Source: Candidatus Nomurabacteria bacterium (GTDB taxonomy: Bacteria; Patescibacteriota; Minisyncoccia; Phycocordibacterales; UBA9973). Taken from it: a stretch of 64,000 bases of DNA. A model generated the notes under the pieces. The model had not been told where the DNA came from, did no database searches, and saw only the letters and a list, made by a program, of their open reading frames with translations. The stretch's first letter is position 1; every line of letters begins with the position of its first letter. The position numbers were made by a program, and so were the translations under genes. Shown piece by piece: positions 9,656 to 64,000 of this stretch. Location of the stretch: contig CP064973.1 in NCBI GenBank assembly GCA_016699365.1, positions 237,684 through 301,683 on the forward strand. Direction: 5' to 3'.

Positions 9656-9900
9656 AAATTTGTTTTTTAATCTCTTAATAATCTCTTAATACGACAACTA
9701 ATAATAGGTATTATATAACATTTTAGCTTAAAAGTCAATAAGATTCCCTTCCACCCATATTCGGGAGGATTTTTGATAGGAGATCTATATTAAACTGCTC
9801 AACTACATGTTTTAGGCCTCGATTCTAGCATAAACCAAAATCAAGAACTAAAAAAGTAGTACGACCTGACTGTCAGGTCGTACAAAAACATTACTGCAAA

Positions 9901-20484: not shown

Positions 20485-20693
20485 AGTATTTTTTATTTAT
20501 TTAATTAAATACTTATATTAGTCCTGTGGATATGTGGATATCTATGTTTTATGTTGGTATATAAAGTAATTTTGAATTTATTTATTATATTTTTAAGTTA
20601 ATTTAAATTCATTTAATTTTATATCTAACAATAAACTAAACTTTATATATACTTATTAATTATTTATGTACACATTTCAGATAGTTATTAACA
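20485..20693. promoter_or_regulatory. candidate oriC: overlapping DnaA-box-like 9-mers plus AT-rich unwinding region between dnaA and dnaN
   Basis: TGTGGATATGTGGATAT at 20525-20541 (two 8/9 matches to TGTGGATAA), followed by a roughly 130 bp tract with almost no G/C (20560-20690). Confidence 0.5.
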
Positions 20694-22040: not shown

Positions 22041-22186
22041 ATGTTTAGTTAGTCTATTATAGTCTACAGATACATAATAAAAAGCCCTTAAATAAAACTA
22101 GAATTGTGTATAAACTGTTAATAATATCTAATAAAAAATAAAACAGATTCTTGCCGAAAAAAGCCTTTTAATGTATGATGCAAGGC

Positions 22187-22321
22187 ATGTCACAAACATA
22201 CCAACCAAAGAAGAAAAAGAGAGCCAAAACTCACGGTTTTCGAAACAGAATAAAGTCAAAAAACGGTAAAAAAATACTTACCCGAAGACGTCAAAAAGGC
22301 AGAGCAAAGCTAACTGTATAG
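22187..22321 (+). CDS. rpmH: 50S ribosomal protein L34
   Basis: 44 aa [44 protein letters not shown]. Below the ORF-track length cutoff. Confidence 0.85.
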
Positions 22322-22326
22322 TAGTA

Positions 22327-22656
22327 ATGTTTCCTAAATCCCAAAAGATTTCAAAAAAATCCCCTATTTTCAAGGAAAAATCAGGTTTTTTTGGTCTTTA
22401 TAATAGAATTACTATCAAAAATAGCCTTAATTTAAAGGCCAAAATAGCTATTGTTGTATCTAAAAAGGTTTTAAATAAAGCTGTAGACAGAAATAGATTA
22501 AAAAGAATAATATATCACTATTTAAGGCCTAAAAATAAGGATATTTCTAATAAAGAGATCGTTATTTTCATAAAAGGCCCAATACCAGAAAAACCTAGTG
22601 TTTTACTAGAAGATATAGAAAAAACCCTTATAAATGCACTTAAAAAAGCAAAATAA
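22327..22656 (+). CDS. rnpA: RNase P protein component
   Basis: 109 aa basic protein; RNR motif region [17 protein letters not shown]; follows rpmH. Confidence 0.7.
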
Positions 22657-22894
22657 AGATAGAATTATCAATATAATTATTGATTTTTATCAAAAATATA
22701 TATCCCCCGACACTGGCTTACCTCATAAAATAGGCTTAATAAATAGACCTGTATGTGTTTTTAGCCCTACTTGCTCAGAATATACAAGAATAGCAATTAT
22801 TAAACATGGTCTGGTAAAAGGCTCTTTTCTAGGCCTAAAACGTATACTACGTTGTCATCCTTGGCAAAAAAAACACTTTGATCCAGTTCCATAA
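22634..22894 (+). CDS. yidD: membrane protein insertion efficiency factor YidD
   Basis: FYQKYISP...[10 protein letters not shown]...[10 protein letters not shown] matches the YidD signature. Confidence 0.7.
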
Positions 22895-22933
22895 ATAGAT
22901 TGCAATTTCAGTGTTTATATATACAATTGACTA

Positions 22934-23665
22934 ATGCTATCAAATATTTGGACAACTATATTTTACGAGCCGTTATATAACGCACTCGTATTTTTTACAG
23001 GCACTTTCGGAGGTATAGGACTTGCTGTTATAACTCTTACTCTAATAGTAAAGATTATAATGTTCCCTCTTACAAAAAAATCTATATTAAGCCAAGCAAA
23101 AATATATGCACTAAATGACGATATAGAAAAAATAAAGAAAGACTATCCAGATAAAACAGAACAGTCTAAAAAAACACTAGAATTATATAAAAAAAACAAT
23201 GTAAACCCATTTTCTAGTTGTTTGGTTATATTAATACAATTACCTATAATCATAGCTCTATACCAAGTATTTCTAAGAGGGATAGAATCTAGTACTGGGG
23301 TTCTATATTCTTTTGTTCATATACCAGAAAACCTATCAACTATGTTTTTAGGTATAAATCTAGAAGAAAAAAGTATTATATTTGCAGTTCTTGCTGGTAT
23401 TACACAATTTATACAAATGAAAATTAGCACATCTATGATAAAACCAGCGGATCCAAATGATGTTTCTTTTAAAGGTCAATTAGCAAAAAGTATGCAATTT
23501 CAAATGAAATACATATTACCATTCTTCATAACCTTTGTGGCCTACAGTGTTTCTGCTGCAATAGCTCTATATTGGGTTGCTAGTAATATTATTACAATAA
23601 TTCAAGAGCTTATAATTAGATCAAGGGCTGGTTTGATAAAAAAAGAAGATCTTTTGAAGATATAA
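22934..23665 (+). CDS. yidC: YidC/Oxa1-family membrane insertase (short form)
   Basis: 243 aa, 5 TM; conserved position after yidD. Confidence 0.8.
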   Translation: MLSNIWTTIFYEPLYNALVFFTGTFGGIGLAVITLTLIVKIIMFPLTKKSILSQAKIYALNDDIEKIKKDYPDKTEQSKKTLELYKKNNVNPFSSCLVILIQLPIIIALYQVFLRGIESSTGVLYSFVHIPENLSTMFLGINLEEKSIIFAVLAGITQFIQMKISTSMIKPADPNDVSFKGQLAKSMQFQMKYILPFFITFVAYSVSAAIALYWVASNIITIIQELIIRSRAGLIKKEDLLKI

Positions 23666-30785: not shown

Positions 30786-31706
30786 TTGAACATGTCTGAA
30801 GTCGAAAATCTAAAACGTCAATTTTTGGAATATATGGAAATTGAACGTGGAGCAAGTCTTAATACTGTTTCAAATTACGATAGATACTTGTCTCGGTTTT
30901 TTGAGTTTATAAAATCTGACAATATAAAAAACATCACAGATGATTCAATTCGTGAATACAGACTATATCTAAATAGGCAGCCAGGTATGCATGTTCGTGG
31001 GCAGTCTAGCTCTACAATGAAGAAAAACACTCAAAACTATTACTTAATAGCGCTTCGAAGATTTCTAAAATACCTGATGAAGCGCGGAATTAGTGCAATA
31101 TCCCCCGATGCAATAGAGCTCGCAAAGATCAAGGAAAGACATCTAGATCTTATAAGTGTAGATGAGCTAAACAGACTCTTGAAAGCTCCAGACACAGAAG
31201 AAATCGGTTCTCTTAGAGATCGTGCGATATTGGAACTTTTTTTCTCGACAGGTCTTCGCTTGTCAGAGTTATGTTCTTTGAATCGAGATTTAGATTTATC
31301 TAAAGATGAATTTTCAATTCGAGGTAAAGGTGAAAAGGTTCGTGTGGTTTTTCTGTCCGATACTGCAAAATCTGCAATACGTGCTTATTTAAAAAAGCGC
31401 GTTGATACAGATGAGCCAATGTTCGTTCAGCACGCTCGCAATAAAGGTCAGGGTGGTGGACGTTTAACACAAAGGTCAATTGAAAGAATTGTAAAACACT
31501 ATGCAATAAAGGCCGGTATTTCCAAGAAAGTTACTCCGCACGTAATACGTCACTCTTTTGCAACAGACCTACTCTCAAACGGCGCTGATATTCGCTCTGT
31601 GCAGATGATGCTTGGGCATGCAAATATTGCTACAACTCAAATATATACACACGTAACAGACAAACAACTTCGAGATGTACACAAAAAGTTTCATTCAAAG
31701 AAATAA
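30786..31706 (+). CDS. xerC: tyrosine site-specific recombinase XerC/XerD family
   Basis: 306 aa; C-terminal catalytic motifs RHSFATDLLSNGADIRSVQMMLGHANIATTQIYTHV with R..HxxR..Y. Confidence 0.8.
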   Translation: MNMSEVENLKRQFLEYMEIERGASLNTVSNYDRYLSRFFEFIKSDNIKNITDDSIREYRLYLNRQPGMHVRGQSSSTMKKNTQNYYLIALRRFLKYLMKRGISAISPDAIELAKIKERHLDLISVDELNRLLKAPDTEEIGSLRDRAILELFFSTGLRLSELCSLNRDLDLSKDEFSIRGKGEKVRVVFLSDTAKSAIRAYLKKRVDTDEPMFVQHARNKGQGGGRLTQRSIERIVKHYAIKAGISKKVTPHVIRHSFATDLLSNGADIRSVQMMLGHANIATTQIYTHVTDKQLRDVHKKFHSKK

Positions 31707-38935: not shown

Positions 38936-40186
38936 ATGAAAAAAATACTTATATTTTTATTTTTTATATTTCCTAAATTTATTTTTGCACAGAACTTTGT
39001 TCCTGTATGGGAAGACACCTATCTTCCAGATCAGGAAGCTGGTTGTTATGTTTCATCTTTGGATTTACAAAATGAAACGATTTTTATCGGACGGTACTGT
39101 GGGGCAGAAGACGAGATTGTTTTTGGAGATATTTCCTCAGAAGAGTGGATGGAATGTGATATTCCCGACTCCCTCGGAGAGATTTCTTCTGGTGGTGTAA
39201 TAGAGGGTGTGTTCTACGTTTATACAGAATCAAACTGGATACTGTCAGTAGATCAGTTGTGTGAAACGGAGGTGGTCGCCAAGAGTGATGGCTGGGCCAA
39301 AATATTTTCCGAGGACGACACCCTTTATGTCTTCGGCTCTAGTGTCTATATAGACGATACCTTGTCCCCTCCTTTTGTTCACTCTTTTGTTCCTGCGACG
39401 AACACTTGGGAGTCATTCCCAAATCCAGAATCTGAATCTGTGATCGGTCTGACAATTTTTCAAAACAAAATGTTTTGCGTTGGACTAGATGATGGGATTC
39501 AAAAGATTTTCCAACTAGACGATTCTCTTTGGAATGTCGTTTATGTTTTTCCAGAAGATGAGCATTTCGTTTCTTGGGAACCTGTCGAAGATAGGATTTA
39601 TGTTTCCTCGACTAACTTCGCTCCCCCACTTGAGTACGGAATATTTTCTGAATTCAAGGACGGAGATATGGACTCGTTGTTTTCAAGTGATGGAAATATT
39701 CTCGACATTTCTGCGAGCGACTGCTTTGTAACTGTTGTTGGTAATTTTACAAATTTTGGAAATTGCGATGCAGAGAACCTGGCGATGTTTGATCGATCTA
39801 CAAAAGAGATTGTTCAGACTGACCGCGGACTTGATGGAAATGGATATGCCGTAGTTGAAAGCGACGAACTATTTTATGCAGGCGGTGCGTTCACCTATGG
39901 AGCAGATATTTATTCACCCGGAATAATATCTCTTCCCTCTTGTTATGAAGTTGGTATCGAAGATATTTCAGAAAACGAGATAAAGATTTTTCCAAACCCA
40001 GCAACAGATTTCCTTTCAATAGAAAACGGTGTTGGAAAAGTTGTTAGAGTATTTTCTTTATCAGAGGAAATATATTTGATGGCAAATGAAATTGAAAATA
40101 GAAAAGTTTTCGATGTTGTGAATCTTTCATCCGGAACTTACTATGTTTTGATTGAAGGAAAAGTTTTTTCTTTTATAAAAATATAA
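38936..40186 (+). CDS. secreted protein with T9SS-type (Por) C-terminal sorting domain
   Basis: Signal peptide ...FIFAQ. C-terminal roughly 75 aa IKIFPNPATDFLSIENG...LSSGTYYVLIEGKVFSFIKI matches the Por_Secre_tail pattern (PNPa.d.l.i ... GvY.v). Confidence 0.55.
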   Translation: MKKILIFLFFIFPKFIFAQNFVPVWEDTYLPDQEAGCYVSSLDLQNETIFIGRYCGAEDEIVFGDISSEEWMECDIPDSLGEISSGGVIEGVFYVYTESNWILSVDQLCETEVVAKSDGWAKIFSEDDTLYVFGSSVYIDDTLSPPFVHSFVPATNTWESFPNPESESVIGLTIFQNKMFCVGLDDGIQKIFQLDDSLWNVVYVFPEDEHFVSWEPVEDRIYVSSTNFAPPLEYGIFSEFKDGDMDSLFSSDGNILDISASDCFVTVVGNFTNFGNCDAENLAMFDRSTKEIVQTDRGLDGNGYAVVESDELFYAGGAFTYGADIYSPGIISLPSCYEVGIEDISENEIKIFPNPATDFLSIENGVGKVVRVFSLSEEIYLMANEIENRKVFDVVNLSSGTYYVLIEGKVFSFIKI

Positions 40187-54193: not shown

Positions 54194-54300
54194 AAAGTAG
54201 TGGATAAAAGAAAGGTTTTCCAGAAACCAAACTTTACACAACCACGAACGTGATACAGGTTTTGTATAAAAGAAAAAATCCCCGGAGGGGGATTTTTTCT
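54194..54300 (+). repeat. conserved intergenic RNA-like element, copy C
   Basis: Core agtaGTGGATAAAAgaaagGTTTTCCAGAAACCaaac; terminator aaaaaatccccggagggggatttttt. Confidence 0.5.
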
Positions 54301-54312
54301 TTCGGATGGATT

Positions 54313-55377
54313 TTACTTCTGATTCTCAAAAAACACAAATACCTTTTCATTTCTAAGCACGTTGTCTACATACAATTCTGCTTGAAGTGGATCTGCGTCC
54401 GGGTAGTTCTCAAGAAGCTTTTTCATTTCTCTCTCCAGTTCTTCTTTATCAGCTTTTATGTTTTCAAGTTTTGCGATTTCACTTATTGATAGTTCTAGTA
54501 TTGCTCTGCGTTCTGCATCTTTTCTCCATTCGTTCAACAAATCTTCGCGAGTCTTTTTTACATGAGCTAGATAGTCGTCTATTTTTAGACCCATGTTTGC
54601 TATGTCTATCTCCATGCGAGACATCATTTTTCGAAGTTCGGCTTGTATAAATACTTCAGGAACATCAATCTTTGCTTCGTCTATTATTCTCTCCATAACA
54701 GCAATGCGTTTTTTCTCATGAGCTTTGTTTGCTTTTTCAAGAGCCATATTCTCTTCGATTTTTGTGCGCAATTCTGCGACTGTTTTGAAATCTCCAAGTG
54801 AGGCAGCAAATTCATCATTTAGTTCTGGAAGATTTTTTTCATCGTTTAGCTCTTCGTGATTGTGGTCATGGTTTTCTTCTTCGCCCTCCTTCATATTTTC
54901 ATGAAGTGCTTGATGAGCTTTCATTTTTCTGAGCTCTAGTATTGCGTTGTCTACCTCCTCTCCTGTTACGTCTACACTCTCGCTTTTTGACATCTCTTCT
55001 TTCGCAATTTTTTTATAGTCCGGGAGTGCTATTTCCGGCAGAACTGCAGTTTTAATTTTGAATTCTAGGGCGTTGCCACGAGCAAGCTTTGTGATTATTA
55101 CCTCAGGGCGTCCGATTGCATCTATTTTGTTTTCTTCCAATATTTTTGGATACTCATCGCCAATAGCGCGTTCTGCCATTTCTTCTAGGATTGTCATATC
55201 AGAGATTTCTTTTCGGAAAGTTGCTTCCGGAACCTTGCCTTTTCGGAATCCTGGCATTTCAAAATCTTTTAACATTTCGTCCACAATGCCTTTTTCGTAA
55301 CCTAACAACTTCTCTTCTGGAATTGTACCTTCTATTTCAACTTGGCTTTTTTCTAGCTTTGTAACTTTTATACTCAT
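54313..55377 (-). CDS. tig: trigger factor (short form)
   Basis: 354 aa; N-terminal ribosome-binding signature PGFRKGKVP; located upstream of clpP as in the canonical tig-clpP arrangement. Confidence 0.75.
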   Translation of the reverse strand: MSIKVTKLEKSQVEIEGTIPEEKLLGYEKGIVDEMLKDFEMPGFRKGKVPEATFRKEISDMTILEEMAERAIGDEYPKILEENKIDAIGRPEVIITKLARGNALEFKIKTAVLPEIALPDYKKIAKEEMSKSESVDVTGEEVDNAILELRKMKAHQALHENMKEGEEENHDHNHEELNDEKNLPELNDEFAASLGDFKTVAELRTKIEENMALEKANKAHEKKRIAVMERIIDEAKIDVPEVFIQAELRKMMSRMEIDIANMGLKIDDYLAHVKKTREDLLNEWRKDAERRAILELSISEIAKLENIKADKEELEREMKKLLENYPDADPLQAELYVDNVLRNEKVFVFFENQK

Positions 55378-55392
55378 ATTTTTATTTTTTAA

Positions 55393-55977
55393 TTAGTCTA
55401 ATTTTGGTGCGTAATCTTTTTCGTATCTATCTTGGCATTCTTTGATTATTTTTATTGCTTCATCTTTATCGAAGAATCCGAGGGGTTTGCATGTACCAGG
55501 CTTTTTTAGATGTTTATAGAATTCAAAATAATGCTCAACTTCCTTTTGCCAGTGTTCTCCAAGATCAGTATAAGACTTTATATGATCCATTCTTTTGTCG
55601 TCGGCAATTACTGTTATTATCTTGTCATCGCGTTCTCCTCCGTCTTCGAATTTCATTACTCCAATTACGCGTAACTCCGCTAGTGTTCCAGGTACAAGTG
55701 GTTCTGTAACATTTGCGATTACAAAATCGAGCAAGTCGTTGTCCTGATCCCATGTCTTAGGGATTAGTCCATAAGCTACTGGATATGCGAGTGATGAATA
55801 ACCAACTCTATCGAGCTTCAATTGTCCGCTCTCAGTTATGAATTCATATTTGTTTATTGAATTTGCATTTATTTCTACAAGTCCATTTACAATACCTTTT
55901 CCTTCATCAGCAAACGAAGGAATAGTGTGCTGTAAATTATACATAAACTTTGATGGTGGTAGGTTTATATTTGCCAT
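55393..55977 (-). CDS. ppa: inorganic pyrophosphatase (family I)
   Basis: 194 aa; DQDNDLLDFVI...VIGVMKFEDGGERDDKII matches the PPase active-site Asp cluster. Confidence 0.85.
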   Translation of the reverse strand: MANINLPPSKFMYNLQHTIPSFADEGKGIVNGLVEINANSINKYEFITESGQLKLDRVGYSSLAYPVAYGLIPKTWDQDNDLLDFVIANVTEPLVPGTLAELRVIGVMKFEDGGERDDKIITVIADDKRMDHIKSYTDLGEHWQKEVEHYFEFYKHLKKPGTCKPLGFFDKDEAIKIIKECQDRYEKDYAPKLD

Positions 55978-56002
55978 AGATTTATTTAGTTAAAATTTTA
56001 AT

Positions 56003-57238
56003 TTAAGCTAACTCTTCTTTTTCTTGTGTGTCTTCGGAAACTGCAACCTCAGGAGTTTCTTTTGCTCCTAGATCTGTTAGAGATATGTATCCTTCATCGG
56101 TTTCGTCTTCTGAACTTCCTATAGTTTCACCTTTTACACCTTTTATATCAATTTTCCATCCAGTAAGTTTTGCTGCAAGACGAACATTTTGTCCACCCTT
56201 ACCAATTGCAAGAGAAAGTTGATCATCGGCTACTTCTACAAGAGCCTTGTGTTCGTCTTCGTTTATTTCAATATCTAGAACTTTTGCAGGTGATAGTGAG
56301 TTTGATACAAGAGTATTTGCATCTTTTGACCAAGGTATAATATCGATTTTCTCACCATTTAGTTCATTCATGACAGTTGTTACACGAACACCGCGTTGTC
56401 CAACACATGAGCCAACTGGATCTACGTGGTCATCATTTGAAAATACTGCGATTTTTGAACGACTTCCTGCTTCACGAGCTATAGATTTTATTTCTACTAT
56501 TCCGTTTGCTATTTCTGGAGCTTCTAGTTCAAATAGTTTTGACAAGAATTTTGGATGAGTGCGTGAAAGTTTTAGAGAAATTCCACGAGGAGATTCTTCT
56601 ACCATATATAGATATGCTCTGATGCGCTCATTGCGACGATATTGCTCACCAGGAATTTGTTCTTCAAAAGGGAGTATTCCAGTTGCACGGTTGAAATCCA
56701 CATATACGATTCCACGTTCTATCTTTTGAACGATTCCAGAAACGATATCGCCTTCTTTTGTGCCGTATTCATCCATGATTGAACTTCTTTCAGCTTCGCG
56801 AATACGTTGTATGATAACTTGTTTTGCAGTTTGAGCTGCGATACGTCCGAAATCATCTTTTGTTTCTAGAGGGAATATTATTTCTTCGTCGAGCTCTATG
56901 CCTTTCTTTATTTTTTGGGCATCTTCTAGGAAGATGTGGTGTTCTTCGTTATATCGAACTCTCTCATCTCCTTCTTCTATAACTTCCTCTTCTTCTGGAG
57001 TTTCTTCAGGTACGATACGGACAGTTGTTTCATCAACAACTTTTTTTACTTGGAAAAATTGAGTAGTTCCATCTTCTAAATCAAACTTTGAACGAATAAT
57101 TTGCCCACGCTTTCCGTATTCTTTCTTGTAAGCAGCAGCGAGAGCTTGTTCTATAGCTTCGATTATTTTTTCTTTTGGGATTTTGCGCTCTTCTTCTAAT
57201 TGTTCAAGAGCTGAACGTAATACTTTTAGATCTAACAT
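56003..57238 (-). CDS. nusA: transcription termination/antitermination factor NusA
   Basis: 411 aa; N-terminal domain, S1, and two KH domains (GxxG motifs LAIGKGGQNVRLAAKLTGW). Confidence 0.85.
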   Translation of the reverse strand: MLDLKVLRSALEQLEEERKIPKEKIIEAIEQALAAAYKKEYGKRGQIIRSKFDLEDGTTQFFQVKKVVDETTVRIVPEETPEEEEVIEEGDERVRYNEEHHIFLEDAQKIKKGIELDEEIIFPLETKDDFGRIAAQTAKQVIIQRIREAERSSIMDEYGTKEGDIVSGIVQKIERGIVYVDFNRATGILPFEEQIPGEQYRRNERIRAYLYMVEESPRGISLKLSRTHPKFLSKLFELEAPEIANGIVEIKSIAREAGSRSKIAVFSNDDHVDPVGSCVGQRGVRVTTVMNELNGEKIDIIPWSKDANTLVSNSLSPAKVLDIEINEDEHKALVEVADDQLSLAIGKGGQNVRLAAKLTGWKIDIKGVKGETIGSSEDETDEGYISLTDLGAKETPEVAVSEDTQEKEELA

Positions 57239-57353
57239 ATATTTTATTGTTATTTATCTATCTCTTGTGAGATAAAATTTTATTAAAAAAAGTCCGCTGA
57301 CAGCGAACTTAATATCCAAATATTACCATAAAGCTCCGAATTGCGCAAATAGC

Positions 57354-57767
57354 CTATTCGTCATCTTTTTTAAATATTTTGAGTACATCTTTTGCAACTT
57401 CGTACATATCTTCGTACTTTGTGTCATCGAGTACAACTCCTATTACATCATCAGCTTTTTCTTTTGCATCCTCTTTTTGTTCTTCGGTCAGAAGAGGCTT
57501 GTCTTCTTCAAAAGAAGGGAATATTCCAGGCTGTTCTGTTTCAGTCTGCACTGTATCTGTTTCAGGTGTTGTTTGAGCCATACCTTTTGAAGATAGTGTC
57601 ATAAAAACAATCGCCGGTATTATAACTTTGAGTGAATTTGCTAAGTTTGGAGGAAGGTCGCTAATACGATCTTTTATATTATGAATTCGTCTAAGTAAAG
57701 CCAAGCCCTCTTCTTTGGGGTTTAGTTTTTCTATCTTATTTAAATTTATTTGTGGTCCTTTTTCCAT
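57354..57767 (-). CDS. hypothetical membrane-anchored acidic protein
   Basis: 137 aa; one TM segment. Confidence 0.35.
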   Translation of the reverse strand: MEKGPQINLNKIEKLNPKEEGLALLRRIHNIKDRISDLPPNLANSLKVIIPAIVFMTLSSKGMAQTTPETDTVQTETEQPGIFPSFEEDKPLLTEEQKEDAKEKADDVIGVVLDDTKYEDMYEVAKDVLKIFKKDDE

Positions 57768-57962
57768 ATATATTAAGATGCAAACACAACTTCTGCGTCA
57801 GCTATAATACGCTCACTTTCGCGAATAAAACGCGCGTATTCTTCGTCGGTTGTTTCTCCGAATATTATTTTTCTAGCTAGTTGTTCCAGTTCTTCGATAG
57901 ACATATATATAGTATACACAGTGTTTTATTCAAAGCAAAACCCCCTATAAAAGGGGGTTGTT

Positions 57963-59288
57963 TTAAAATTTAACGAATCTTCCTTGGAAATGTTCAGATT
58001 TAACTGAATAAATTCCAGCAGGCAGATTTTCAATATTGATTATTATCTTTGAGTCGTTGACTAACTTGTTGTTAAAACTAACCAGTTGTCCATATGAGTT
58101 AAAAATGCTCACTTCATCAAATATATTTTCAATATTATCAATCTCTATAGTTACGATGTCCTTTGCTGGGTTAGGATAGATGTTTATGTTTTTTTCAATC
58201 TCAAATATTGAGATATTTGTAGTGTCTTCAGTAGTGTCTACTGGAGTTTCTACTTTATAAACAAACATCCAAGATCCAATAGCCGCATATAAGTCATCTC
58301 CTATAAAACCAATATCTTTACCTGCGCCAGTTCCGGCTATGCTTGTTCCGTCTACTGATTTCCATTCCAAAGTATTTGGATCGTAGGTTACGATAGGGTT
58401 TACTTCTACTCCGTTTACTTCATCTAAGTCTCCGTAAAAATAAACTAGACCATCATGGGATTTTATTCCCACAGGCTCTCCATTCATATTGCCTATGACG
58501 TTGAATACTACACCATCGGTTGATTCATAGAACTCTTTGTCTCCTCCGTCAAAATTCCAGAGGGCAATATATAGCTTATCTTCGGATCTCGCAATTGCGT
58601 ATACTATGAAATTAGTCGGTAAATTTGTGCTTTCGGCACTCTCGCAGCCGCAAGATTCATCCCATATAAAGAGATTTTTGTAATCTTGCGGTAATGAAAA
58701 ATATCCTATGTAATATTTACCTGCAAAATAAACCATGTCAGTAGGTGTTCCGTTTACTGAGAAACCCGGTAATGGTGATACGTTTTCACCATCGTACACA
58801 AATGCACCAGGATAAGGGCTTGTGAAATCACCTAAAACTACTAGATTTCCATCGCTTAGTGTATCTAATACTGTTACACCACCGTCGATATTTATCCCAG
58901 AACTTTCCCAAGGGTCATTTATGTTATCTTTTTTTGCGAGTTTCCACATCGGATCATCCGATACTCCACCTGCATAACTAATTCCATGAGAAACAGCGAA
59001 GTCTTTTATACCTCCGCTCTCATCTTCAGGGAATCCACTTTGAGGATTAATGAATTCATCGTTTTCCATTATTGCAAATTTTGCAAAAGGGAAACCAGCG
59101 CTTTCATTGAACGATCCTCCAATCATTATTTGTCCAGTAGATTCATTGGTCTCGATTACGTTTATGTAACCGGGAACATAATCAATCGGAGACAATGATT
59201 GAGCATTCGCAGTCAATAAACTGCTTAAAAATAAGGCTAAGATGTATAAATTCTTCATCTTTTTAGATATTTTTTTATTAAAAAACAA
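57963..59288 (-). CDS. secreted protein with T9SS-type (Por) C-terminal sorting domain
   Basis: Signal peptide ...LLTANAQ; C-terminal NINIYPNPAKDIVTIEIDN...LPAGIYSVKSE...FVKF matches the Por_Secre_tail pattern. Confidence 0.5.
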   Translation of the reverse strand: MFFNKKISKKMKNLYILALFLSSLLTANAQSLSPIDYVPGYINVIETNESTGQIMIGGSFNESAGFPFAKFAIMENDEFINPQSGFPEDESGGIKDFAVSHGISYAGGVSDDPMWKLAKKDNINDPWESSGINIDGGVTVLDTLSDGNLVVLGDFTSPYPGAFVYDGENVSPLPGFSVNGTPTDMVYFAGKYYIGYFSLPQDYKNLFIWDESCGCESAESTNLPTNFIVYAIARSEDKLYIALWNFDGGDKEFYESTDGVVFNVIGNMNGEPVGIKSHDGLVYFYGDLDEVNGVEVNPIVTYDPNTLEWKSVDGTSIAGTGAGKDIGFIGDDLYAAIGSWMFVYKVETPVDTTEDTTNISIFEIEKNINIYPNPAKDIVTIEIDNIENIFDEVSIFNSYGQLVSFNNKLVNDSKIIINIENLPAGIYSVKSEHFQGRFVKF

Positions 59289-59377
59289 TTATATAACACA
59301 TTAGAGCAGAGATTATGTCAAATGTCCAGATAGTTATCCACATCGTAAACCTTTTTAAAATAAGCTCAAAATGTTGA

Positions 59378-59710
59378 TTGTGGTATTATTATTTACATAA
59401 TATGGATATTGAATCTACAATAAACCACCCTGTTTTAAGCCACAACAGAAACAAGCACATACTATATATATTACTTTCTGTAATTGTATTTTTATCTGTT
59501 ATATATGTGGTTATGATAAAGCAGGATAGGATAGAGCCTTATTCTATAGATGCAAGATATATAGAGCTATCAAGATTGAAGAATACAGGTGATCCAATTT
59601 CAACTATTGAAGAGAGATATGAAGCGATATCAAAATCAGAAGAAAGTGGAACAGTCCAAATATCCACATTTGAAAAATTAAAAGCTATGGAAGCTTTGAA
59701 TCAAAAATAA
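59378..59710 (+). CDS. small hypothetical membrane protein
   Basis: 110 aa ORF with one TM; an alternative start Met lies about 30 nt in. Confidence 0.3.
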   Translation: MWYYYLHNMDIESTINHPVLSHNRNKHILYILLSVIVFLSVIYVVMIKQDRIEPYSIDARYIELSRLKNTGDPISTIEERYEAISKSEESGTVQISTFEKLKAMEALNQK

Positions 59711-59713
59711 AAT

Positions 59714-61552
59714 ATGTTCAAAAAAGCAAAAAAACAAATCGCTTTAATTTTTACTCTAACCTTAATCGTTGTTTGTATTGGGAGTGTGACTAAGCCATAC
59801 GAAGCTAGTGCTGGTGCAGGGCAAAATGTTTCTGGTTGGGCATGGGGAGAAGGTTTTGTTGACTGGTCAATATACGCAGGAGACCCAGATGAAGGAGGAG
59901 CAGGAGAGGATATTGGCTTAAAAGAAAATGTATATCTAAGAAATCTTACAAATATTTTTATAAAACAAGTTGTAGCTTTTTACGATAATGTTCCTGGTGT
60001 AGATGATGGAGATGACAAGGCTGGTGGTATGGGATGGCTGTCTTTTAACTGTAGTACTGCTCCATATGGTTGTGCTGTTGATTATGGTGTGAATATAGAT
60101 ATGACGACTGGTCTAATGACTGGCAATGCTTGGAGTGAAAACTACGGTTGGGTTAAATTTGATGCAGGTTGTCCAGCAGGTACAACAGGAGATTGTAGTG
60201 CAAAATTAAATCTAGCTACAAATGAATTAGTTGGTTTTGCAAAAGTTTTATCAGGAGATGATGTTGCAACTGATGGATTTGATGGATGGATTAGTTTGAA
60301 TGATTCAAATGATCACAATTTTATTACAACTGGTGTAAACCCTTCACCGTTTGCTTATGGAGTTTCTTTTACACCAGGAACAGGTGTGTTGAGTGGGTAT
60401 GCTTGGGGATCGGCTGTAACTGGTTGGGTTCAGTTTACAGACGTTCATGTGAATGCAGTTGTTGATACTGGTAGTTTGAAATTTGTACCAACTACAACTA
60501 TCCCTGTTTCAATAACTGGTCTTCCGAATACAATTACTGTTCCGGCAGGGCCTATAGTTTTAAACTGGAATTCTCCTGATGGAACTGTGTACAACAATTG
60601 TATTCCTACATCTACACCAGCAAATCCTGCATGGAATAGTACAATCATAAATGCTACAGCTTCAAACTTACCACCTATGGCTCCAGCATTTGAATACAAA
60701 GAAGGCATATCTCTTGTTGCAGCCACTGGTGCAAATATTTTTTCAATACAATGTTTCCCTGCAGGAGGAGGAGCTCCAACAAGTGCTACTGCGATTGTAA
60801 ATGTTGATGAGGACATGTTACCACCTCTAGATCTATATATAGCTGGAACTACAAATACTATTGGATCTGTGTTTAGTCCTTATGAAGTAGATCTTTCTTG
60901 GAAATCAGATAGTCCAAACTTTAACCCACTTATATCTTGCACTGGATCACAAACAGACGCGACTGGGGTTGTGATTGCTAGTTGGGATGCAGATGCTGAA
61001 GCTGTGCCTGTAGTTGCTGGTGCTTATTACACCGAATATGGAATGAATGTTCCAAATGATCCAACTTATTTCAAAATAACTTGTACTGCCACAAACGGAA
61101 CGCTAGTAAGTTCTAATCTAGTGATTGTTAATAGAACAGAAGTAGGAGATCCGTCAGTTACTTTTACTGGAAGTTGTACTGAATCTGTGACCGGCCTTGA
61201 TCCATATGTAAGCTGGAGTTCATCTGATTCAGTCTCTTGTGACGCTTTGTCTGGAGAAAATTTTGATACTGATGGAGATACTTCAGGATATGATTCTGTT
61301 GCAACTCTAGATCCATCCACATCTCCTTATGAATATGAAATAGAATGTGAAAATGATACAGGTTCTGATACAGAGATTGCTAATGTATGGTACTTGCCTC
61401 TAGGAGAAACCTGTACACCTACCGGATGCGATCCAGAACTAGACCCTACTTGTACTCCATGTGACCCAGCAGTAGACCCATGGTGCACAGCCGGATCGGG
61501 AGGAGTAAGGCCAGTGTTCAATGAGCAGAGACAAGAAGATATCAATCCATAA
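59714..61552 (+). CDS. large secreted protein with five Trp-rich G(W/Y)AWG...GW(I/V)xF repeats and a Cys-rich C-terminus
   Basis: Signal peptide. Repeats GWAWGEGFVDWS, GGMGWLSFNC, NYGWVKFDAG, DGWISLND, GYAWGSAVTGWVQFTD. C-terminal CTPTGCDPELDPTCTPCDPAVDPWC. Confidence 0.5.
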   Translation: MFKKAKKQIALIFTLTLIVVCIGSVTKPYEASAGAGQNVSGWAWGEGFVDWSIYAGDPDEGGAGEDIGLKENVYLRNLTNIFIKQVVAFYDNVPGVDDGDDKAGGMGWLSFNCSTAPYGCAVDYGVNIDMTTGLMTGNAWSENYGWVKFDAGCPAGTTGDCSAKLNLATNELVGFAKVLSGDDVATDGFDGWISLNDSNDHNFITTGVNPSPFAYGVSFTPGTGVLSGYAWGSAVTGWVQFTDVHVNAVVDTGSLKFVPTTTIPVSITGLPNTITVPAGPIVLNWNSPDGTVYNNCIPTSTPANPAWNSTIINATASNLPPMAPAFEYKEGISLVAATGANIFSIQCFPAGGGAPTSATAIVNVDEDMLPPLDLYIAGTTNTIGSVFSPYEVDLSWKSDSPNFNPLISCTGSQTDATGVVIASWDADAEAVPVVAGAYYTEYGMNVPNDPTYFKITCTATNGTLVSSNLVIVNRTEVGDPSVTFTGSCTESVTGLDPYVSWSSSDSVSCDALSGENFDTDGDTSGYDSVATLDPSTSPYEYEIECENDTGSDTEIANVWYLPLGETCTPTGCDPELDPTCTPCDPAVDPWCTAGSGGVRPVFNEQRQEDINP

Positions 61553-61615
61553 GAAATGTATTGTGATATGATATTAGATATAAAAAACTTTTATTATTAG
61601 TAGATTTAAATAAAT

Positions 61616-63013
61616 ATGAAAGAGAATTCTATAAAAAAAATAATAAGTACCTCAAAAATAATCCTATTAGGATTGTTTGTGGCAGTAGGTATGAACTACG
61701 CATTTGCTTTCGTTGGGCCTACAGCAACTGCTCCTGGTAGTAACATCGCTGCTCCAGTAAATGTTAGTACATATGATCAAGTTAAAGATGGCGGCTTGGC
61801 AGTAAATGCTTTTGTTGGTGGTGGAGACGGGTCAGAGAGTTCATTTTGGGGAGATTTAACAATAGGAGGAGTTCCAGGTGGAATCGTAGGACCTAAAGAT
61901 TTATTTGTATATGGTGATATTGGGTTGGATAAATTCAGACAACTATACGAAGACAATCTTTTGAATATTTCGTATCCTGCTCCTGTTTGTACTGACACAG
62001 CTGGAAATATAGTTTTTTGTGCAGAAGCGGGAAGTGATTTCATTTTCTTGGCTGATGGATCAACAAATACATATTACCCAAATGATCTATATCCTGGAGT
62101 TACTGGTGTAACACTGTCTTGGAGTTCAAGTAGTTCTACTTGTACTGCTAGTGGCGTTCCTTTAGTGTGGAGTGGTGAGAAATCTGGTTCAGGTGTTCAA
62201 ATAGTTAATTTTGCTACAAATGGTTTAAAGGTATTAAATCTAGAATGTGGGGGTGTGACTAGAAGTGTTTCAGTAAATGTTTCTGGTCCAGCAAGTGAGC
62301 ATGGTACAAAAGTATTTACTTCAAATGGAACACTGTATGGCAATGAGATTCCTTATGGAGTTCCTGTAATGATAGAAGTTTGGGGTGGAGGTGGAGGCGG
62401 AGCTTTCACAGGAAATGGTGATGAAGTTGGAGGTGGAGGCGGAGCTGGAGGAAGCTACACAATGGCTATAATACCTTCAAATAACACAGCAAACGAATAC
62501 GCAGTTACAATTGGAAATGGAGGATTGGGAGGTAAAACAGTTGTGGGCACAACAACTTATGATGGTGCTCCTGGAGGACAAAGTAGTGTTATCGGTGGTG
62601 GTGTAACAATAAAAGCTGCAGGAGGATACGGAGCGGAAAATGGATTGCATAGTAGTGCGTATCTAACAAACGCAGCAAGAGGAGTAAATTCAATATCTGG
62701 AACAGTAAATGGTAAAACAGTCTCAGGTTTCTCAATCTTGGGTGGTCAATCAGAACAATCTGAAGAATATGCTTGCATAAAGACAACTGGCGCAGATTTT
62801 GAGAAACAAGGTTTTGGTGGAAGAGGTGGTGATTCTCCACGAGGTGGTGCAGGAGGATTGCCAAAGATATTAGGAGCTTCTGCTAAGTCTGGTGATGTTC
62901 CTGGTGGAGGCGGAGGTGGAGGTACTTATGACCGAAGTCCTGATTGTGATGGAGGAGGATCTCCTTCTGCTGGTGCAGATGGTGCAAAAGGAATGGTTGT
63001 AGTAACTTGGTAA
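61616..63013 (+). CDS. secreted/anchored glycine-rich protein
   Basis: N-terminal hydrophobic segment; the C-terminal half is dominated by GGGGG runs (VWGGGGGGAFTGNGDEVGGGGGAGG...GGGGGGGTYD). Confidence 0.5.
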   Translation: MKENSIKKIISTSKIILLGLFVAVGMNYAFAFVGPTATAPGSNIAAPVNVSTYDQVKDGGLAVNAFVGGGDGSESSFWGDLTIGGVPGGIVGPKDLFVYGDIGLDKFRQLYEDNLLNISYPAPVCTDTAGNIVFCAEAGSDFIFLADGSTNTYYPNDLYPGVTGVTLSWSSSSSTCTASGVPLVWSGEKSGSGVQIVNFATNGLKVLNLECGGVTRSVSVNVSGPASEHGTKVFTSNGTLYGNEIPYGVPVMIEVWGGGGGGAFTGNGDEVGGGGGAGGSYTMAIIPSNNTANEYAVTIGNGGLGGKTVVGTTTYDGAPGGQSSVIGGGVTIKAAGGYGAENGLHSSAYLTNAARGVNSISGTVNGKTVSGFSILGGQSEQSEEYACIKTTGADFEKQGFGGRGGDSPRGGAGGLPKILGASAKSGDVPGGGGGGGTYDRSPDCDGGGSPSAGADGAKGMVVVTW

Positions 63014-63094
63014 AAAATGAAAATAAAAAATCCCGCAGTCGCGGGATTTTTTTGTATAAGAATACAAATTATTTTGTTATAATAAAAACAATAA

Positions 63095-64000
63095 ATGCAA
63101 ATCAAAGAAGATCAATTAAAAAAGTTTATTATCGAGAGTGGTCTTGTTGCAAAGGCTGATATTGCTCTTGCTGATAAAACTGCAAAAGAAAAAGATCAAT
63201 CGATTGGCGATGTTCTGGTTTCTTTTGGAAAAATAACTGACATTGATTTAAAACGTATGCAAGCGTATGTGCTTGGGATACCTTTTATATCACTTGCAAC
63301 AGAAAAAATTGATTTTGAAACTCTATCTTTGATTCCTGAAACTATTGCTCGTAAACACAACATAATTGCTTATAAAAAAAGACCTCGTGAGCTTGAGGTG
63401 GCGATGCTTGATATAGATGATCTTCCAGTTATAGATTTTATAAAGAAAAAGGTTGAGCTTAAGATATCTCCTAGACTTACTGATTCTGATTCAATCAAGC
63501 ACGCACTATCTCAATACAAAAAAAGTTTAAAGGCAGATTTCGACGACATAATAAAAAAAGAATCCTCATCTCTTAAGACTATCTCAGAAGATGGAGGAGA
63601 AGGTGCTTTGTCCGAAAAAGAACTAAAAGAGATGGCAGAAGACTTGCCTGTGGTAAAAATTGTAGACACTCTTATATCTCATGCAATATTGCAAAATACA
63701 TCTGATATTCATATTGAACCAGAAGAGGAACAGCTCTTAGTTCGTTATAGAATAGACGGCATACTTCGTGATGCTATGGTCTTGCCGCGTGATGCATCAG
63801 CGGGCATAACTGCACGTATAAAAGTTTTAGCTAATTTAAAACTCGATGAGAAGAGGCTTCCTCAAGACGGTAGATTTAAAATAACAACAGAATCCGGAGA
63901 CCGAGTATCTTTTCGTGTATCTACACTACCAACATACTATGGCGAGAAGACTGTTATCCGTATTTTGAAGGAGAATTCAAAAGGCTATACCCTAGAAGGT
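63095..64000 (+). CDS. pilB: type IV pilus assembly ATPase PilB/GspE family (5' part; continues beyond window)
   Basis: GspE N-terminal domain (MQIKEDQLKKFIIESGLVAKADIALA...) followed by the start of the ATPase domain (DIHIEPEEEQLLVRYRIDGIL...QDGRF). Second PilB paralog in the window. Confidence 0.8.
   Translation, partial: MQIKEDQLKKFIIESGLVAKADIALADKTAKEKDQSIGDVLVSFGKITDIDLKRMQAYVLGIPFISLATEKIDFETLSLIPETIARKHNIIAYKKRPRELEVAMLDIDDLPVIDFIKKKVELKISPRLTDSDSIKHALSQYKKSLKADFDDIIKKESSSLKTISEDGGEGALSEKELKEMAEDLPVVKIVDTLISHAILQNTSDIHIEPEEEQLLVRYRIDGILRDAMVLPRDASAGITARIKVLANLKLDEKRLPQDGRFKITTESGDRVSFRVSTLPTYYGEKTVIRILKENSKGYTLEG

What the first reader, a model, noticed from the sequence alone, without database searches (positions are those of the whole stretch)
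57963..64000. Surface-structure gene cluster: T9SS-CTD protein, Trp-repeat giant protein, glycine-rich giant protein and a second PilB ATPase
Four consecutive genes encode a secreted protein with a Por-type C-terminal sorting domain (minus strand), a 612-aa secreted protein with five G(W/Y)AWG...GWxxF repeats and a Cys-rich tail, a 465-aa protein whose C-terminal half is poly-Gly-rich, and then a PilB/GspE ATPase that runs off the window. None of the two big proteins has a canonical type IV prepilin signal (G|FTLIE). They may be pilus-associated adhesins or tip proteins, or components of an uncharacterised appendage. A first PilB (11065) also sits next to large secreted repeat proteins (7418-10875), so the theme recurs.
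Basis: partly seen in the sequence, partly recalled or inferred. Interest (0 to 1): 0.55.

Follow-up and report, generated by a model that had tools for sequence, protein, structure and literature searches.

The report
Pilus-linked surface adhesin gene module
In a tiny symbiotic bacterium of the Patescibacteria group, three genes for a small membrane protein, a tryptophan-repeat surface protein and a protein tipped with a phage-tail-fibre-like domain sit directly in front of an ordinary type IV pilus operon; this arrangement recurs across the group and is a good candidate for how these cells recognise and grip their hosts.

Summary
The ORFs are real and mostly as described, with corrections. 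There are five genes before pilB, not four. The Trp protein has four repeats, not five. Neither protein is "giant".

The organism is a Patescibacterium (Paceibacterota). In five collinear relatives the truncated pilB continues into pilC and three pilin-like genes, then housekeeping genes. So this is a normal type IV pilus (T4P) operon, not an unknown appendage.

The upstream genes form a separate transcription unit. A terminator hairpin ends it, and that hairpin is conserved in position in the relatives. The unit encodes:
- a bitopic membrane protein with three short repeats;
- a Sec-exported Trp-repeat protein (4 repeats, Ig-like domains, a conserved C-terminal P-x-F-x-E motif), whose family has about 9,800 cluster representatives but no Pfam, NCBIfam or PDB match;
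- a Sec-exported protein with a conserved mature N-terminus and a Gly_rich_2 head that matches solved phage tail-fibre tips.

In 75 species-level loci, pilB lies downstream on the same strand in 21, upstream in 3, and never on the opposite strand.

My best reading is a Patescibacteria-specific surface adhesin module that works together with T4P in host attachment. Physical attachment to the pilus is unproven. The Por-type domain is real but has no plausible T9SS here.

The parts
57963..59288 (-). Secreted protein (441 aa ORF; probable start ATG 59258) with a probable beta-propeller-like N-terminal part and a Por_Secre_tail (T9SS type A) C-terminal domain at nt 57987-58181. It is divergently transcribed from the module.
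   Evidence: PF18962 scores 52.1 bits and TIGR04183 34.3 bits. Rax2 and DUF5122 propeller hits are weak. It keeps this position in L001-L005, including L002, where the adjacent NusA block is inverted. dN/dS 0.10.
59378..59710 (+). Small bitopic membrane protein (probable start 59402, about 102 aa). It has a short cytoplasmic N-terminus, one TM helix and three repeats of [ST]xEE[KR]xx[IL]LxxL. It is the first gene of the module and its stop lies 3 nt before the next start.
   Evidence: No Pfam or NCBIfam family. The alignment of 21 upstream ORFs from distant loci shows the TM helix and the three repeats. An HMM finds 42 ORFs, 25 of them directly upstream of a Trp-repeat gene with gaps of -3 to 22 nt. 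dN/dS 0.17.
59714..61552 (+). Trp-repeat surface protein, 612 aa. Features: signal peptide (residues 1-33, EASA|G); four-repeat Trp domain nt 59819-60448 with a lineage-specific insertion at nt 59855-60022; three to four Ig-like beta-sandwich domains nt 60476-61396; Cys-rich linker nt 61406-61489; C-terminal motif RPVFNEQ nt 61508-61528.
   Evidence: Invariant G/W columns in 35 sequences. AF2 pLDDT is 80-90 in the repeat and Ig regions. Foldseek returns only tandem Ig hits. No Pfam, NCBIfam or PDB-sequence match. Family size is 9,775 representatives. The C-terminal motif is seen in most of 80 family ORFs.
61616..63013 (+). Fibre-like protein, 465 aa. Features: signal peptide (AFA|F); conserved mature N-terminal module nt 61700-61840 (FVGPTATAPGSN..APVN...Q.K.GGL); an Ig-like middle part; a C-terminal Gly_rich_2 domain nt 62345-63010 of the phage tail-fibre-tip type.
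   Evidence: PF21722 scores 41 bits. Profile hits to Pam3 tail fibre 7ypx/7yfw (E 2e-5) and Bxb1 gp33 9d93. Foldseek hits to the same chains, then ALK glycine-rich domain. phrog_863, tail category, E 1e-10. The N-terminal module HMM finds 77 ORFs in 52 sources: 51 of the 84 loci plus the window.
63025..63052 (.). Symmetric A-tract/GC-stem/T-tract hairpin (intrinsic terminator type) that ends the three-gene unit.
   Evidence: 12-pair stem; folds at -20 kcal/mol within the spacer. A hairpin at the same position, with different stem sequences, is present in L005, L001, L002 and L003.
63075..63083 (+). Extended -10-like element TGTTATAAT, 11 nt before the pilB start. It is a promoter candidate by consensus only.
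   Evidence: Sequence. Identical in L005; similar GCTATAAT, GCTATACT and GGTATACT in L003, L002 and L001. Its function is inferred, not shown.
63095..64000 (+). N-terminal 302 residues of a PilB-type T4P assembly ATPase (MshEN domain plus the start of T2SSE), cut by the window end.
   Evidence: It is 96% identical to the first 302 residues of the 585-aa PilB of L005, which is followed by PilC, a 598-aa pilin-like protein, a 219-aa prepilin and a 489-aa PilX/GspK-like protein.

Best explanation
The region holds two adjacent units in a Patescibacterium (Paceibacterota).

Unit 1 (59378-63013, ended by a terminator) is a three-gene cell-surface module specific to Patescibacteria. It encodes:
- a small bitopic membrane protein;
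- a Sec-exported stalk protein, made of an N-terminal four-repeat Trp domain, Ig-like spacers and a conserved C-terminal P-x-[FYW]-x-E peptide;
- a Sec-exported fibre protein whose conserved mature N-terminus (W/F-x-G-P-T..PP..N..AP.N...Q.K.GGL) carries an exchangeable head. Here the head is a Gly_rich_2 domain of the kind that forms phage tail-fibre tips.

Unit 2 (from 63095) is an ordinary T4P operon: pilB, pilC, and three pilin-like genes that lie beyond the window.

Proposed mechanism:
- The three products are exported by Sec and cleaved by signal peptidase I.
- They assemble on the cell envelope. The small membrane protein acts as tether, the Trp protein as stalk, and the conserved termini as docking elements.
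- The tail-fibre-like head binds a receptor on the host cell surface.
- The module is deployed together with T4P, which supply reach and retraction during episymbiotic attachment.

Shown: gene content, family membership, domain homologies, conserved gene order, separate transcription signals, and purifying selection.

Inferred: export and cleavage, the tether/stalk/head assembly, receptor binding, and cooperation with pili.
For: - Taxonomy and collinearity: homologues and 80 loci are almost all Patescibacteria. L005 is collinear with the window at about 79% nucleotide identity.
- The T4P operon continues in relatives.
- Small-gene family: its members sit directly upstream of the Trp gene in 25 loci.
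- Fibre-gene position: an N-terminal-module gene starts less than 400 nt downstream of the Trp gene, on the same strand, in 22 of 63 loci.
- pilB position: downstream on the same strand in 21 of 75 loci, upstream in 3, opposite strand in 0. Within 3 kb it is 13/58 downstream against 0/55 upstream (Fisher p = 1.2e-4).
- Fusions link the parts. P0017 joins the Trp domain to the start of a Gly_rich_2 domain (hhalign probability 96%, E 3.6e-9). P0026 and P0030 join a GspH-like prepilin N-terminus to the Trp domain.
- Heads are phage receptor-binding-type domains.
- A terminator hairpin is conserved in position in 5 genomes.
- dN/dS is 0.09-0.18.
- Precedent: in Saccharibacteria TM7x, PilX2, encoded in a T4P locus and without a PilD-type signal peptide, is needed for host binding (PMC11623550).
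Against: - No experiment or expression data support this.
- Only 35 of 80 loci show any T4P-type gene within the fetched flanks. Some members have none within 10 kb (for example L085), so the link to pili is preferential, not obligate.
- The loci are one per species but are not phylogenetically independent, so the p-values are optimistic.
- The fold of the Trp-repeat domain could not be matched to anything, so no ligand can be named.
- The AF2 model of the fibre protein is poor (mean pLDDT 48).
- The tether/stalk/head assembly is pure inference; no complex prediction could be run.
- Signal-peptide cleavage was judged by eye from A-x-A sites, not by a predictor.
Confidence: 0.5

Rival explanations
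1. The Trp-repeat and fibre proteins are non-pilin components of the pilus itself, analogous to PilY1. They would be exported by Sec, captured by the minor-pilin priming complex encoded just downstream (the 600-aa pilin-like protein, the 200-aa prepilin and the 490-aa PilX/GspK-like protein), and displayed at the pilus tip as the adhesin.
For: - Their position directly upstream of pilB-pilC-minor pilins is conserved.
- The downstream pilin-like set looks like a priming or tip set: GspJ/I/H-like N-termini, and one member lacks Glu5.
- Rare proteins carry the Trp domain on a prepilin N-terminus.
- TM7x PilX2 is a precedent.
Against: - Only 3 of 174 family members have a prepilin motif.
- The module has its own terminator and a dedicated small membrane protein.
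- In 3 loci with PilB the Trp gene lies more than 6 kb away. Many loci show no T4P gene in the fetched flanks.
- No PilY1-type propeller domain was detected.
Confidence: 0.22
2. The three genes encode general envelope proteins with no functional tie to pili. For example, the Trp repeats could anchor the protein non-covalently to the cell wall or S-layer, as other aromatic-rich repeats do. Adjacency to pilB would then be inherited gene order in small, compact genomes.
For: - More than half of the family loci show no T4P gene nearby.
- The module is a separate transcription unit.
- Aromatic beta-hairpin repeats resemble wall-binding repeats, but this rests on my own knowledge and was not tested successfully.
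Against: - Strong strand and side asymmetry of pilB relative to the Trp gene, across many orders of Patescibacteria.
- Pilin fusions exist.
- No hit to CW_binding or other wall-binding Pfam families at E <= 0.1.
Confidence: 0.15
3. The pilB-pilC-pilin-like set acts as a secretion piston of the T2SS or T4bP type, and the Trp and fibre proteins are its Sec-exported cargo, pushed through the wall or S-layer like TcpF or CofJ.
For: - The cargo-like genes carry Sec signals and are encoded next to the machine.
- The pilin-like genes have pseudopilin-type N-termini and no obvious small major pilin lies in the cluster.
Against: - Patescibacteria have no outer membrane to cross (established knowledge).
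- The module often occurs without the machine nearby.
- PilB scores best with the T4aP PilB model.
Confidence: 0.06
4. The fibre gene and its neighbours are remnants of a prophage tail module.
For: The Gly_rich_2 head matches phage tail fibres and tail-category PHROGs.
Against: - No other phage genes lie next to the cluster; the window's only integrase-family gene is about 26 kb away (30786-31706). Flanks are NusA, pyrophosphatase, trigger factor, T4P genes, TIM and PGK.
- The arrangement is conserved in position across species and under purifying selection.
- GC content is like the surroundings.
Confidence: 0.02

Closest known systems
PilY1 with the minor-pilin priming complex (Pseudomonas aeruginosa, Myxococcus xanthus T4aP)
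   Same: It is a large non-pilin protein with a Sec-type signal, encoded beside minor pilins and the pilus machinery, and it acts as an adhesin.
   Different: There is no PilY1/PilC beta-propeller domain (no Pfam hit). The genes lie upstream of pilB in their own transcription unit, with a dedicated small membrane protein. Association with the pilus is not shown.
PilX2 of the Saccharibacteria TM7x T4P-2 system (PMC11623550)
   Same: It is from the same superphylum, is encoded in a T4P locus, lacks a PilD-type signal peptide, and is a host-binding adhesin.
   Different: PilX2 carries an RCC1-type propeller and is described as a pilin-like protein. The proteins here have a Trp-repeat domain or a Gly_rich_2 head. 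Homology between them was not tested.
Phage tail-fibre tip domains: cyanophage Pam3 fibre (7YPX/7YFW), mycobacteriophage Bxb1 gp33 'tail wing brush' (9D93), and more distantly the ALK glycine-rich domain
   Same: The C-terminal Gly_rich_2 domain of the 465-aa protein matches them by sequence profile (E 2e-5 to 3e-4) and by fold (E 1e-5 to 4e-4).
   Different: This is a cellular protein with a signal peptide and a Patescibacteria-specific N-terminal module, in a chromosomal, non-phage context.
T9SS type A C-terminal-domain cargo proteins of Bacteroidota
   Same: The 441-aa protein, and a paralogue at 38936-40186, score above the curated cut-offs for Por_Secre_tail.
   Different: The host is a Patescibacterium. 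T9SS is described as limited to Bacteroidetes (PMC11611037 abstract), and this group has no outer membrane. The domain therefore probably serves another role, for example as a terminal beta-sandwich.
Aromatic beta-hairpin wall-binding repeats (choline-binding/CW_binding_1, GW modules, WxL)
   Same: They are short repeats with conserved Gly-Trp and aromatic residues in secreted surface proteins. This resemblance is from memory only.
   Different: No Pfam hit at E <= 0.1 and no PDB-sequence hit at E <= 10. Membership is not supported.

Membership tests
Type IV pilus (T4aP-like) assembly operon | PilB/GspE-type hexameric assembly ATPase with an N-terminal MshEN-type domain | tested here: met
   In the window fragment, T2SSE has E 7.6e-31 and MshEN E 8.4e-15, and the best NCBIfam model is TIGR02538. 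The full-length orthologue in L005 scores 521 bits on TIGR02538, which is below the equivalog cut-off of 675, and 414 bits on T2SSE.
Type IV pilus (T4aP-like) assembly operon | PilC/GspF platform protein next to the ATPase | tested here: met
   It is not in the window, which ends inside pilB. It is present directly after pilB in the collinear relatives L001, L002, L003 and L005: T2SSF E 4.7e-55, GspF/PilC NCBIfam E 6e-91.
Type IV pilus (T4aP-like) assembly operon | Proteins with a prepilin-type N-terminal cleavage/methylation motif | tested here: met
   In relatives there is a 198-219-aa protein with KGFTLIE (TIGR02532 scores 27.5 against a cut-off of 16.3). There is also a roughly 600-aa protein with GM(S/T)LIETLV, and a roughly 490-aa protein with KGFILLNT that lacks Glu5. 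No ORF in the window itself has the motif.
Type IV pilus (T4aP-like) assembly operon | Prepilin peptidase, PilM/N/O alignment proteins, retraction ATPase | tested here: inconclusive
   None lie in the cluster of the relatives. None were found among the window ORFs scanned with Pfam. The rest of the genome is not available.
Type IV pilin (for the 612-aa and 465-aa proteins) | Class III signal peptide: short basic leader, G|F/M, Glu5, then a hydrophobic helix retained in the mature protein | tested here: not met
   Both have Sec-type signals with A-x-A sites (EASA|G and AFA|F) and no [GAS][FM]T[LI][IV]E motif. Only 3 of 174 Trp-family members have a prepilin motif.
T9SS type A cargo | C-terminal Por_Secre_tail domain above the curated cut-off | tested here: met
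   PF18962 scores 52.1 against 27, and TIGR04183 scores 34.3 against 23.
T9SS type A cargo | Host encodes the T9SS translocon (SprA, PorV, PorU, GldKLMN) and has an outer membrane | not testable with these tools
   Only 64 kb is available, and no such gene is among the ORFs scanned. The taxonomy (Patescibacteria) and the literature statement that T9SS is limited to Bacteroidetes argue against it.
Pfam PF21722 Gly_rich_2 | Score at or above the gathering threshold over the full domain | tested here: met
   41 bits against 24.3, covering residues 244-465 and profile positions 9-225 of 226. Matches to solved phage fibres support it.
PilY1 / Neisseria PilC adhesins | C-terminal PilY1-type beta-propeller domain | tested here: not met
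   No Pfam or NCBIfam hit of that kind in either large protein. The Foldseek hits of the 612-aa model are tandem Ig-like chains.
Choline-binding / cell-wall-binding repeats | Match to CW_binding-type repeat profiles | tested here: not met
   No Pfam family at E <= 0.1 for the 612-aa protein. The domain profile A4 finds no PDB sequence at E <= 10.
Prophage tail module | Neighbouring phage structural or integration genes | tested here: not met
   The flanks in the window and in five relatives are housekeeping and T4P genes.

The most novel reading that the evidence does not exclude
The small membrane protein, the Trp-repeat protein and the proteins sharing the W-x-G-P-T N-terminal module build a previously undescribed Sec-dependent surface fibre of Patescibacteria. 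The tether sits in the membrane. The stalk is assembled through its conserved N-terminal Trp domain and its C-terminal P-x-F-x-E peptide, possibly by head-to-tail or strand-insertion docking. Interchangeable phage-tail-fibre-like heads, often encoded as tandem paralogues, set host specificity. The structure would be a host-recognition organelle that works with pilus retraction, and the heads would be the long-sought host-range determinants of these episymbionts.
Probability: 0.2. Interest if true: 0.8.

Novelty: new variant of a known kind. Interest (0 to 1): 0.6.

Why it matters
Patescibacteria make up a large share of bacterial diversity and live attached to other microbes. How they recognise hosts is largely unknown, beyond a role for type IV pili in a few cultivated Saccharibacteria.

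This work defines a three-gene module with the following properties:
- Its largest family has roughly 10,000 cluster representatives at 50% identity.
- I found no curated family, no solved structure and no paper for its defining domains.
- It is preferentially placed directly upstream of pilus assembly genes.
- It carries heads homologous to phage receptor-binding domains.

If the reading is right, the module gives concrete, testable candidates for host-range determinants, and sequence markers for predicting host specificity from metagenomes. It also shows a Por-type 'T9SS' domain used outside any T9SS context.

Tried and rejected
- **Exact-sequence look-up.** The 465-aa protein is not on record, so the window's own contig could not be extended. 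Relatives were used instead.
- **Profile searches against PDB sequences.** The trimmed Trp domain (A4) and the fibre N-terminal module (A5) each gave 0 hits at E <= 10.
- **AF2 model of the 465-aa protein.** It is poor (mean pLDDT 48). Its Foldseek hits are trusted only because the independent sequence-profile search found the same chains.
- **'Gly' phmmer hits in other loci.** I first read these as Gly-rich homologues. Pfam showed they are not Gly_rich_2. They share only the N-terminal module, which redefined the family.
- **Pilin fusion as a general architecture.** Rejected: 3 of 174.
- **Prophage origin.** Rejected on context.
- **Second PilB as a recurrence of the theme.** Rejected.
- **Literature searches.** Searches for the motif strings, PF21722, T9SS in Patescibacteria, and tail-fibre-like adhesins in this group found nothing relevant apart from the TM7x pilus paper.

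Full report
**What is in the sequence.**
Between 57963 and 64000 there are five complete ORFs and one truncated ORF.

- 57963-59288(-), 441 aa, ends in a Por_Secre_tail domain. PF18962 scores 52.1 bits against a cut-off of 27, and TIGR04183 scores 34.3 against 23.
- 59378-59710(+), about 102 aa from the likely ATG at 59402, is a small one-helix membrane protein.
- 59714-61552(+), 612 aa, starts 3 nt after the small gene's stop.
- 61616-63013(+), 465 aa, follows. Its C-terminal half is 28% Gly and matches PF21722 Gly_rich_2 (41 bits against 24.3).
- A symmetric GC hairpin flanked by A and T runs lies at 63025-63052.
- A PilB-type ATPase begins at ATG 63095 and runs off the window. It has T2SSE and MshEN domains, and its best NCBIfam model is TIGR02538.

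No ORF of 70 aa or more anywhere in the window has a prepilin motif. The 612-aa and 465-aa proteins instead have ordinary signal peptides with A-x-A sites (EASA|G and AFA|F), read directly from the sequence.

**Organism, and what lies beyond the window.**
Homologues of both large proteins come from Patescibacteria/Paceibacterota.

Five contigs keep the same gene order (L001-L005). L005 (Ca. Paceibacterota, DALYDX010000005.1) is collinear with window 54271-64000 at about 79% nucleotide identity. Its PilB is 96% identical to the 302 residues seen here.

In all contigs that are long enough, the order after pilB is as follows:
- pilC;
- a roughly 600-aa protein with a GM(S/T)LIETLV prepilin-like N-terminus and CarboxypepD_reg domains;
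- a roughly 200-aa protein with a canonical KGFTLIE prepilin signal (TIGR02532 scores 27.5 against 16.3);
- a roughly 490-aa protein starting KGFILLNT, without Glu5, as in GspK/PilX-type proteins;
- the housekeeping genes tpiA and pgk.

The ATPase therefore belongs to an ordinary T4P-type operon. dN/dS between the window and L005 is 0.10, 0.17, 0.09, 0.18 and 0.04 for the five genes, so none is decaying.

**The Trp-repeat protein.**
An alignment with 34 homologues shows a conserved domain of about 140-200 residues directly after the signal peptide. Its G and W columns are invariant, while the C-terminal parts vary (Ig-like, PKD, FN3).

The domain consensus is four hairpin-type repeats of the form G-[WYF]-A-W-[SG]-x(3-7)-G-W-[IV]-x-F. 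Repeats 2 and 4 are clearly duplicates. In the window they read YGVNIDMTTGLMTGNAWSENYGWVKFD and YGVSFTPGTGVLSGYAWGSAVTGWVQFT.

In the window lineage, repeat 1 is interrupted by a 56-residue insertion (residues 48-103) of low model confidence.

The AF2 model (mean pLDDT 70.8) is confident for residues 104-245 and for three to four beta-sandwich domains between 255 and 561. The Cys-rich linker and the tail are disordered.

Fold searches return only tandem Ig-like chains. A profile of the trimmed domain finds no PDB sequence at E <= 10. Pfam and NCBIfam have no model for it.

The family is large. A profile search of 1.84 billion representatives gives 9,775 proteins at E <= 1e-3 and 3,829 at E <= 1e-30. 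Most are 400-450 aa.

Most members end in a short motif, P-x-[FYW]-x-E-[IVF], or the longer LPxPxW[KRQ]E[IVT]xP(F), with no membrane helix after it. The window protein has RPVFNEQ near its end.

**The Gly-rich protein.**
Its C-terminal domain matches solved phage proteins both by sequence profile and by fold.
- By sequence profile: Pam3 tail fibre 7ypx/7yfw (E 2e-5) and Bxb1 gp33 'tail wing brush' 9d93 (E 3e-4).
- By fold: 9d93 and 7ypx (E 1e-5 to 4e-4), followed by the ALK glycine-rich domain.
- It also hits tail-category PHROGs (phrog_863, E 1e-10).

The AF2 model is poor overall (pLDDT 48). I rely on the agreement of the two independent searches rather than on the model.

Related proteins in other loci turned out not to share this head (no Pfam hit). 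They share the first roughly 45 residues of the mature protein instead, with consensus A|W-T-G-P-T-A-x-P-P-x-G-N-x-x-A-P-[IV]-N-V-x(4)-Q-x-K-x-G-G-L.

An HMM of this module finds 77 ORFs in 52 sources, namely 51 of the 84 loci plus the window. They are often tandem paralogues with different C-terminal parts, and several of those also match phage tail or baseplate PHROGs. The module has no PDB relative by sequence.

**The small protein.**
The ORFs directly upstream of Trp genes in distant loci align well. Each has a short N-terminus, one TM helix and three repeats of [ST]xEE[KR]xx[IL]LxxL. An HMM finds 42 such ORFs. Twenty-five of them lie directly upstream of a Trp gene, with gaps of -3 to 22 nt.

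**Linkage to pili.**
A scan of one genome per species found at least 493 confirmed Trp-domain stretches. The best 80 loci were analysed.

| Measure | Result |
|---|---|
| Loci with a PilB-type ATPase in the fetched flanks | 25 of 80 |
| Loci with PilC | 24 of 80 |
| Loci with any T4P-type gene | 35 of 80 |
| PilB downstream of the Trp gene, same strand | 21 of 75 |
| PilB upstream of the Trp gene (each more than 6 kb away, with pilC and pilins between) | 3 of 75 |
| PilB on the opposite strand | 0 of 75 |
| PilB within 3 kb downstream | 13 of 58 |
| PilB within 3 kb upstream | 0 of 55 |

The 3-kb comparison gives Fisher p = 1.2e-4, which is optimistic because the loci are related.

The recurrent order is small gene, Trp gene, zero to three N-module genes, then pilB, pilC and the pilin genes. 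The C-terminal motif subtype tracks context:
- Short type (42 members, including the window protein): small gene upstream in 19, N-module gene downstream in 20.
- Long type (14 members): neither neighbour in any member.

Fusions tie the parts together. P0017 joins a Trp domain to the start of a Gly_rich_2 domain (hhalign 96%, E 3.6e-9). P0026 and P0030 carry the Trp domain on GspH-like prepilin N-termini. Such pilin fusions are rare, at 3 of 174.

**Transcription units.**
The hairpin after the fibre gene is present at the same place in L005, L001, L002 and L003, with different stem sequences. It is followed by a -10-like element before pilB. The three-gene module is therefore most likely transcribed separately from pilB. 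This rests on sequence signals only.

**The Por-type protein.**
The domain assignment is sound, and a distant paralogue lies at 38936-40186 (27.9 bits; 24% identity over 212 residues). T9SS is described as limited to Bacteroidetes (PMC11611037 abstract), and Patescibacteria lack an outer membrane (established knowledge), so a T9SS sorting role is unlikely.

The gene stays next to the module in all five relatives, including L002, where the neighbouring NusA block is inverted. It is absent from the other 79 loci. I treat it as a lineage-specific neighbour.

**The first PilB.**
The ATPase at 11065 has no PilC or pilin partner. Its neighbours are unrelated surface proteins on the other strand, followed by ruvB, ruvC, tyrS and a PBP. 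The 'recurring theme' is not supported.

**Interpretation.**
- Best supported (about 0.5): a Sec-dependent surface module made of a tether, a stalk and an exchangeable tail-fibre-like head. It is preferentially encoded directly upstream of T4P genes and used together with them for host attachment.
- Main rival (about 0.2): the proteins are carried by the pilus itself, like PilY1. A precedent is TM7x PilX2, a host-binding protein encoded in a T4P locus without a PilD-type signal (PMC11623550).
- Less likely: an unrelated envelope function, a cargo role, or a prophage remnant.

**Novelty.**
The pilus operon is ordinary. The three upstream families match no model in the curated libraries searched (Pfam, NCBIfam), their defining domains match no solved structure, and I found no paper on them, apart from the known Gly_rich_2 head. 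I rate this as a new variant of a known kind, namely adhesin sets linked to type IV pili.

**Limits.**
- No expression or localisation data are available.
- No complex prediction could be run.
- The Trp-domain fold is unassigned.
- Only 64 kb of this genome is visible.

Noticed in passing
window 38936-40186 (+): This is a second protein with a Por_Secre_tail domain (416 aa, PF18962 27.9 bits against a cut-off of 27). It is 24% identical over 212 residues to the 57963-59288 protein. The 'T9SS' domain is therefore a recurrent C-terminal module in this Patescibacterium, which is not expected to have a T9SS.
   Followed up: partly
Trp-repeat family, e.g. window 61508-61528; L043, L065, L078 C-termini: The family shows a conserved C-terminal peptide in two forms: ..P-x-[FYW]-x-E-x-COOH and ..LPxPxW[KRQ]E[IVT]xP(F)-COOH. 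Most members have no membrane helix after it. A few instead continue into a hydrophobic tail (L054, L084). The two forms go with different gene neighbourhoods. It may be a docking or sorting signal.
   Followed up: partly
L031 1399-9923; L017 11262-13810; L013 11015-13255: These are tandem arrays of up to eight paralogues. All share the W-T-G-P-T N-terminal module but carry different C-terminal heads. The pattern resembles host-range cassettes.
   Followed up: partly
window 59855-60022: A 56-residue acidic insertion of low model confidence sits inside repeat 1 of the Trp domain. It is present in the window, P0001 and P0003, and absent in P0002, P0004 and P0005.
   Followed up: no
window 11065-12762 (+) with 7418-9655 (-) and 9901-10875 (-): This is an orphan PilB/GspE-type ATPase with no PilC or pilins nearby. 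Its divergent neighbours are a 745-aa surface protein (FN3-like repeats, DUF11, C-terminal membrane anchor) and a 324-aa Pro/Gly-rich membrane protein.
   Followed up: partly
window 19387-23665: dnaN, dnaA and yidC lie here, in a stretch of very low GC (0.28 at 18-24 kb). This is probably the chromosomal origin region, about 35 kb from the cluster.
   Followed up: no
window 57354-57767 (-): A 137-aa ORF with one hydrophobic segment lies between nusA and the Por-tail gene. It is conserved in L001 and L003 but missing in L002, where the NusA block is inverted.
   Followed up: no
L033 (CAYYGX010000004.1) and L067 (JAQUOC010000094.1): These contigs carry the Patescibacteria-type Trp-domain match but are labelled Gammaproteobacteria and Dehalococcoidales MAGs. 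This is probably binning contamination.
   Followed up: no
window 30786-31706 (+): A tyrosine recombinase (Phage_integrase family with a SAM-like N-domain), probably XerC/D-type. No phage genes were seen next to it.
   Followed up: no
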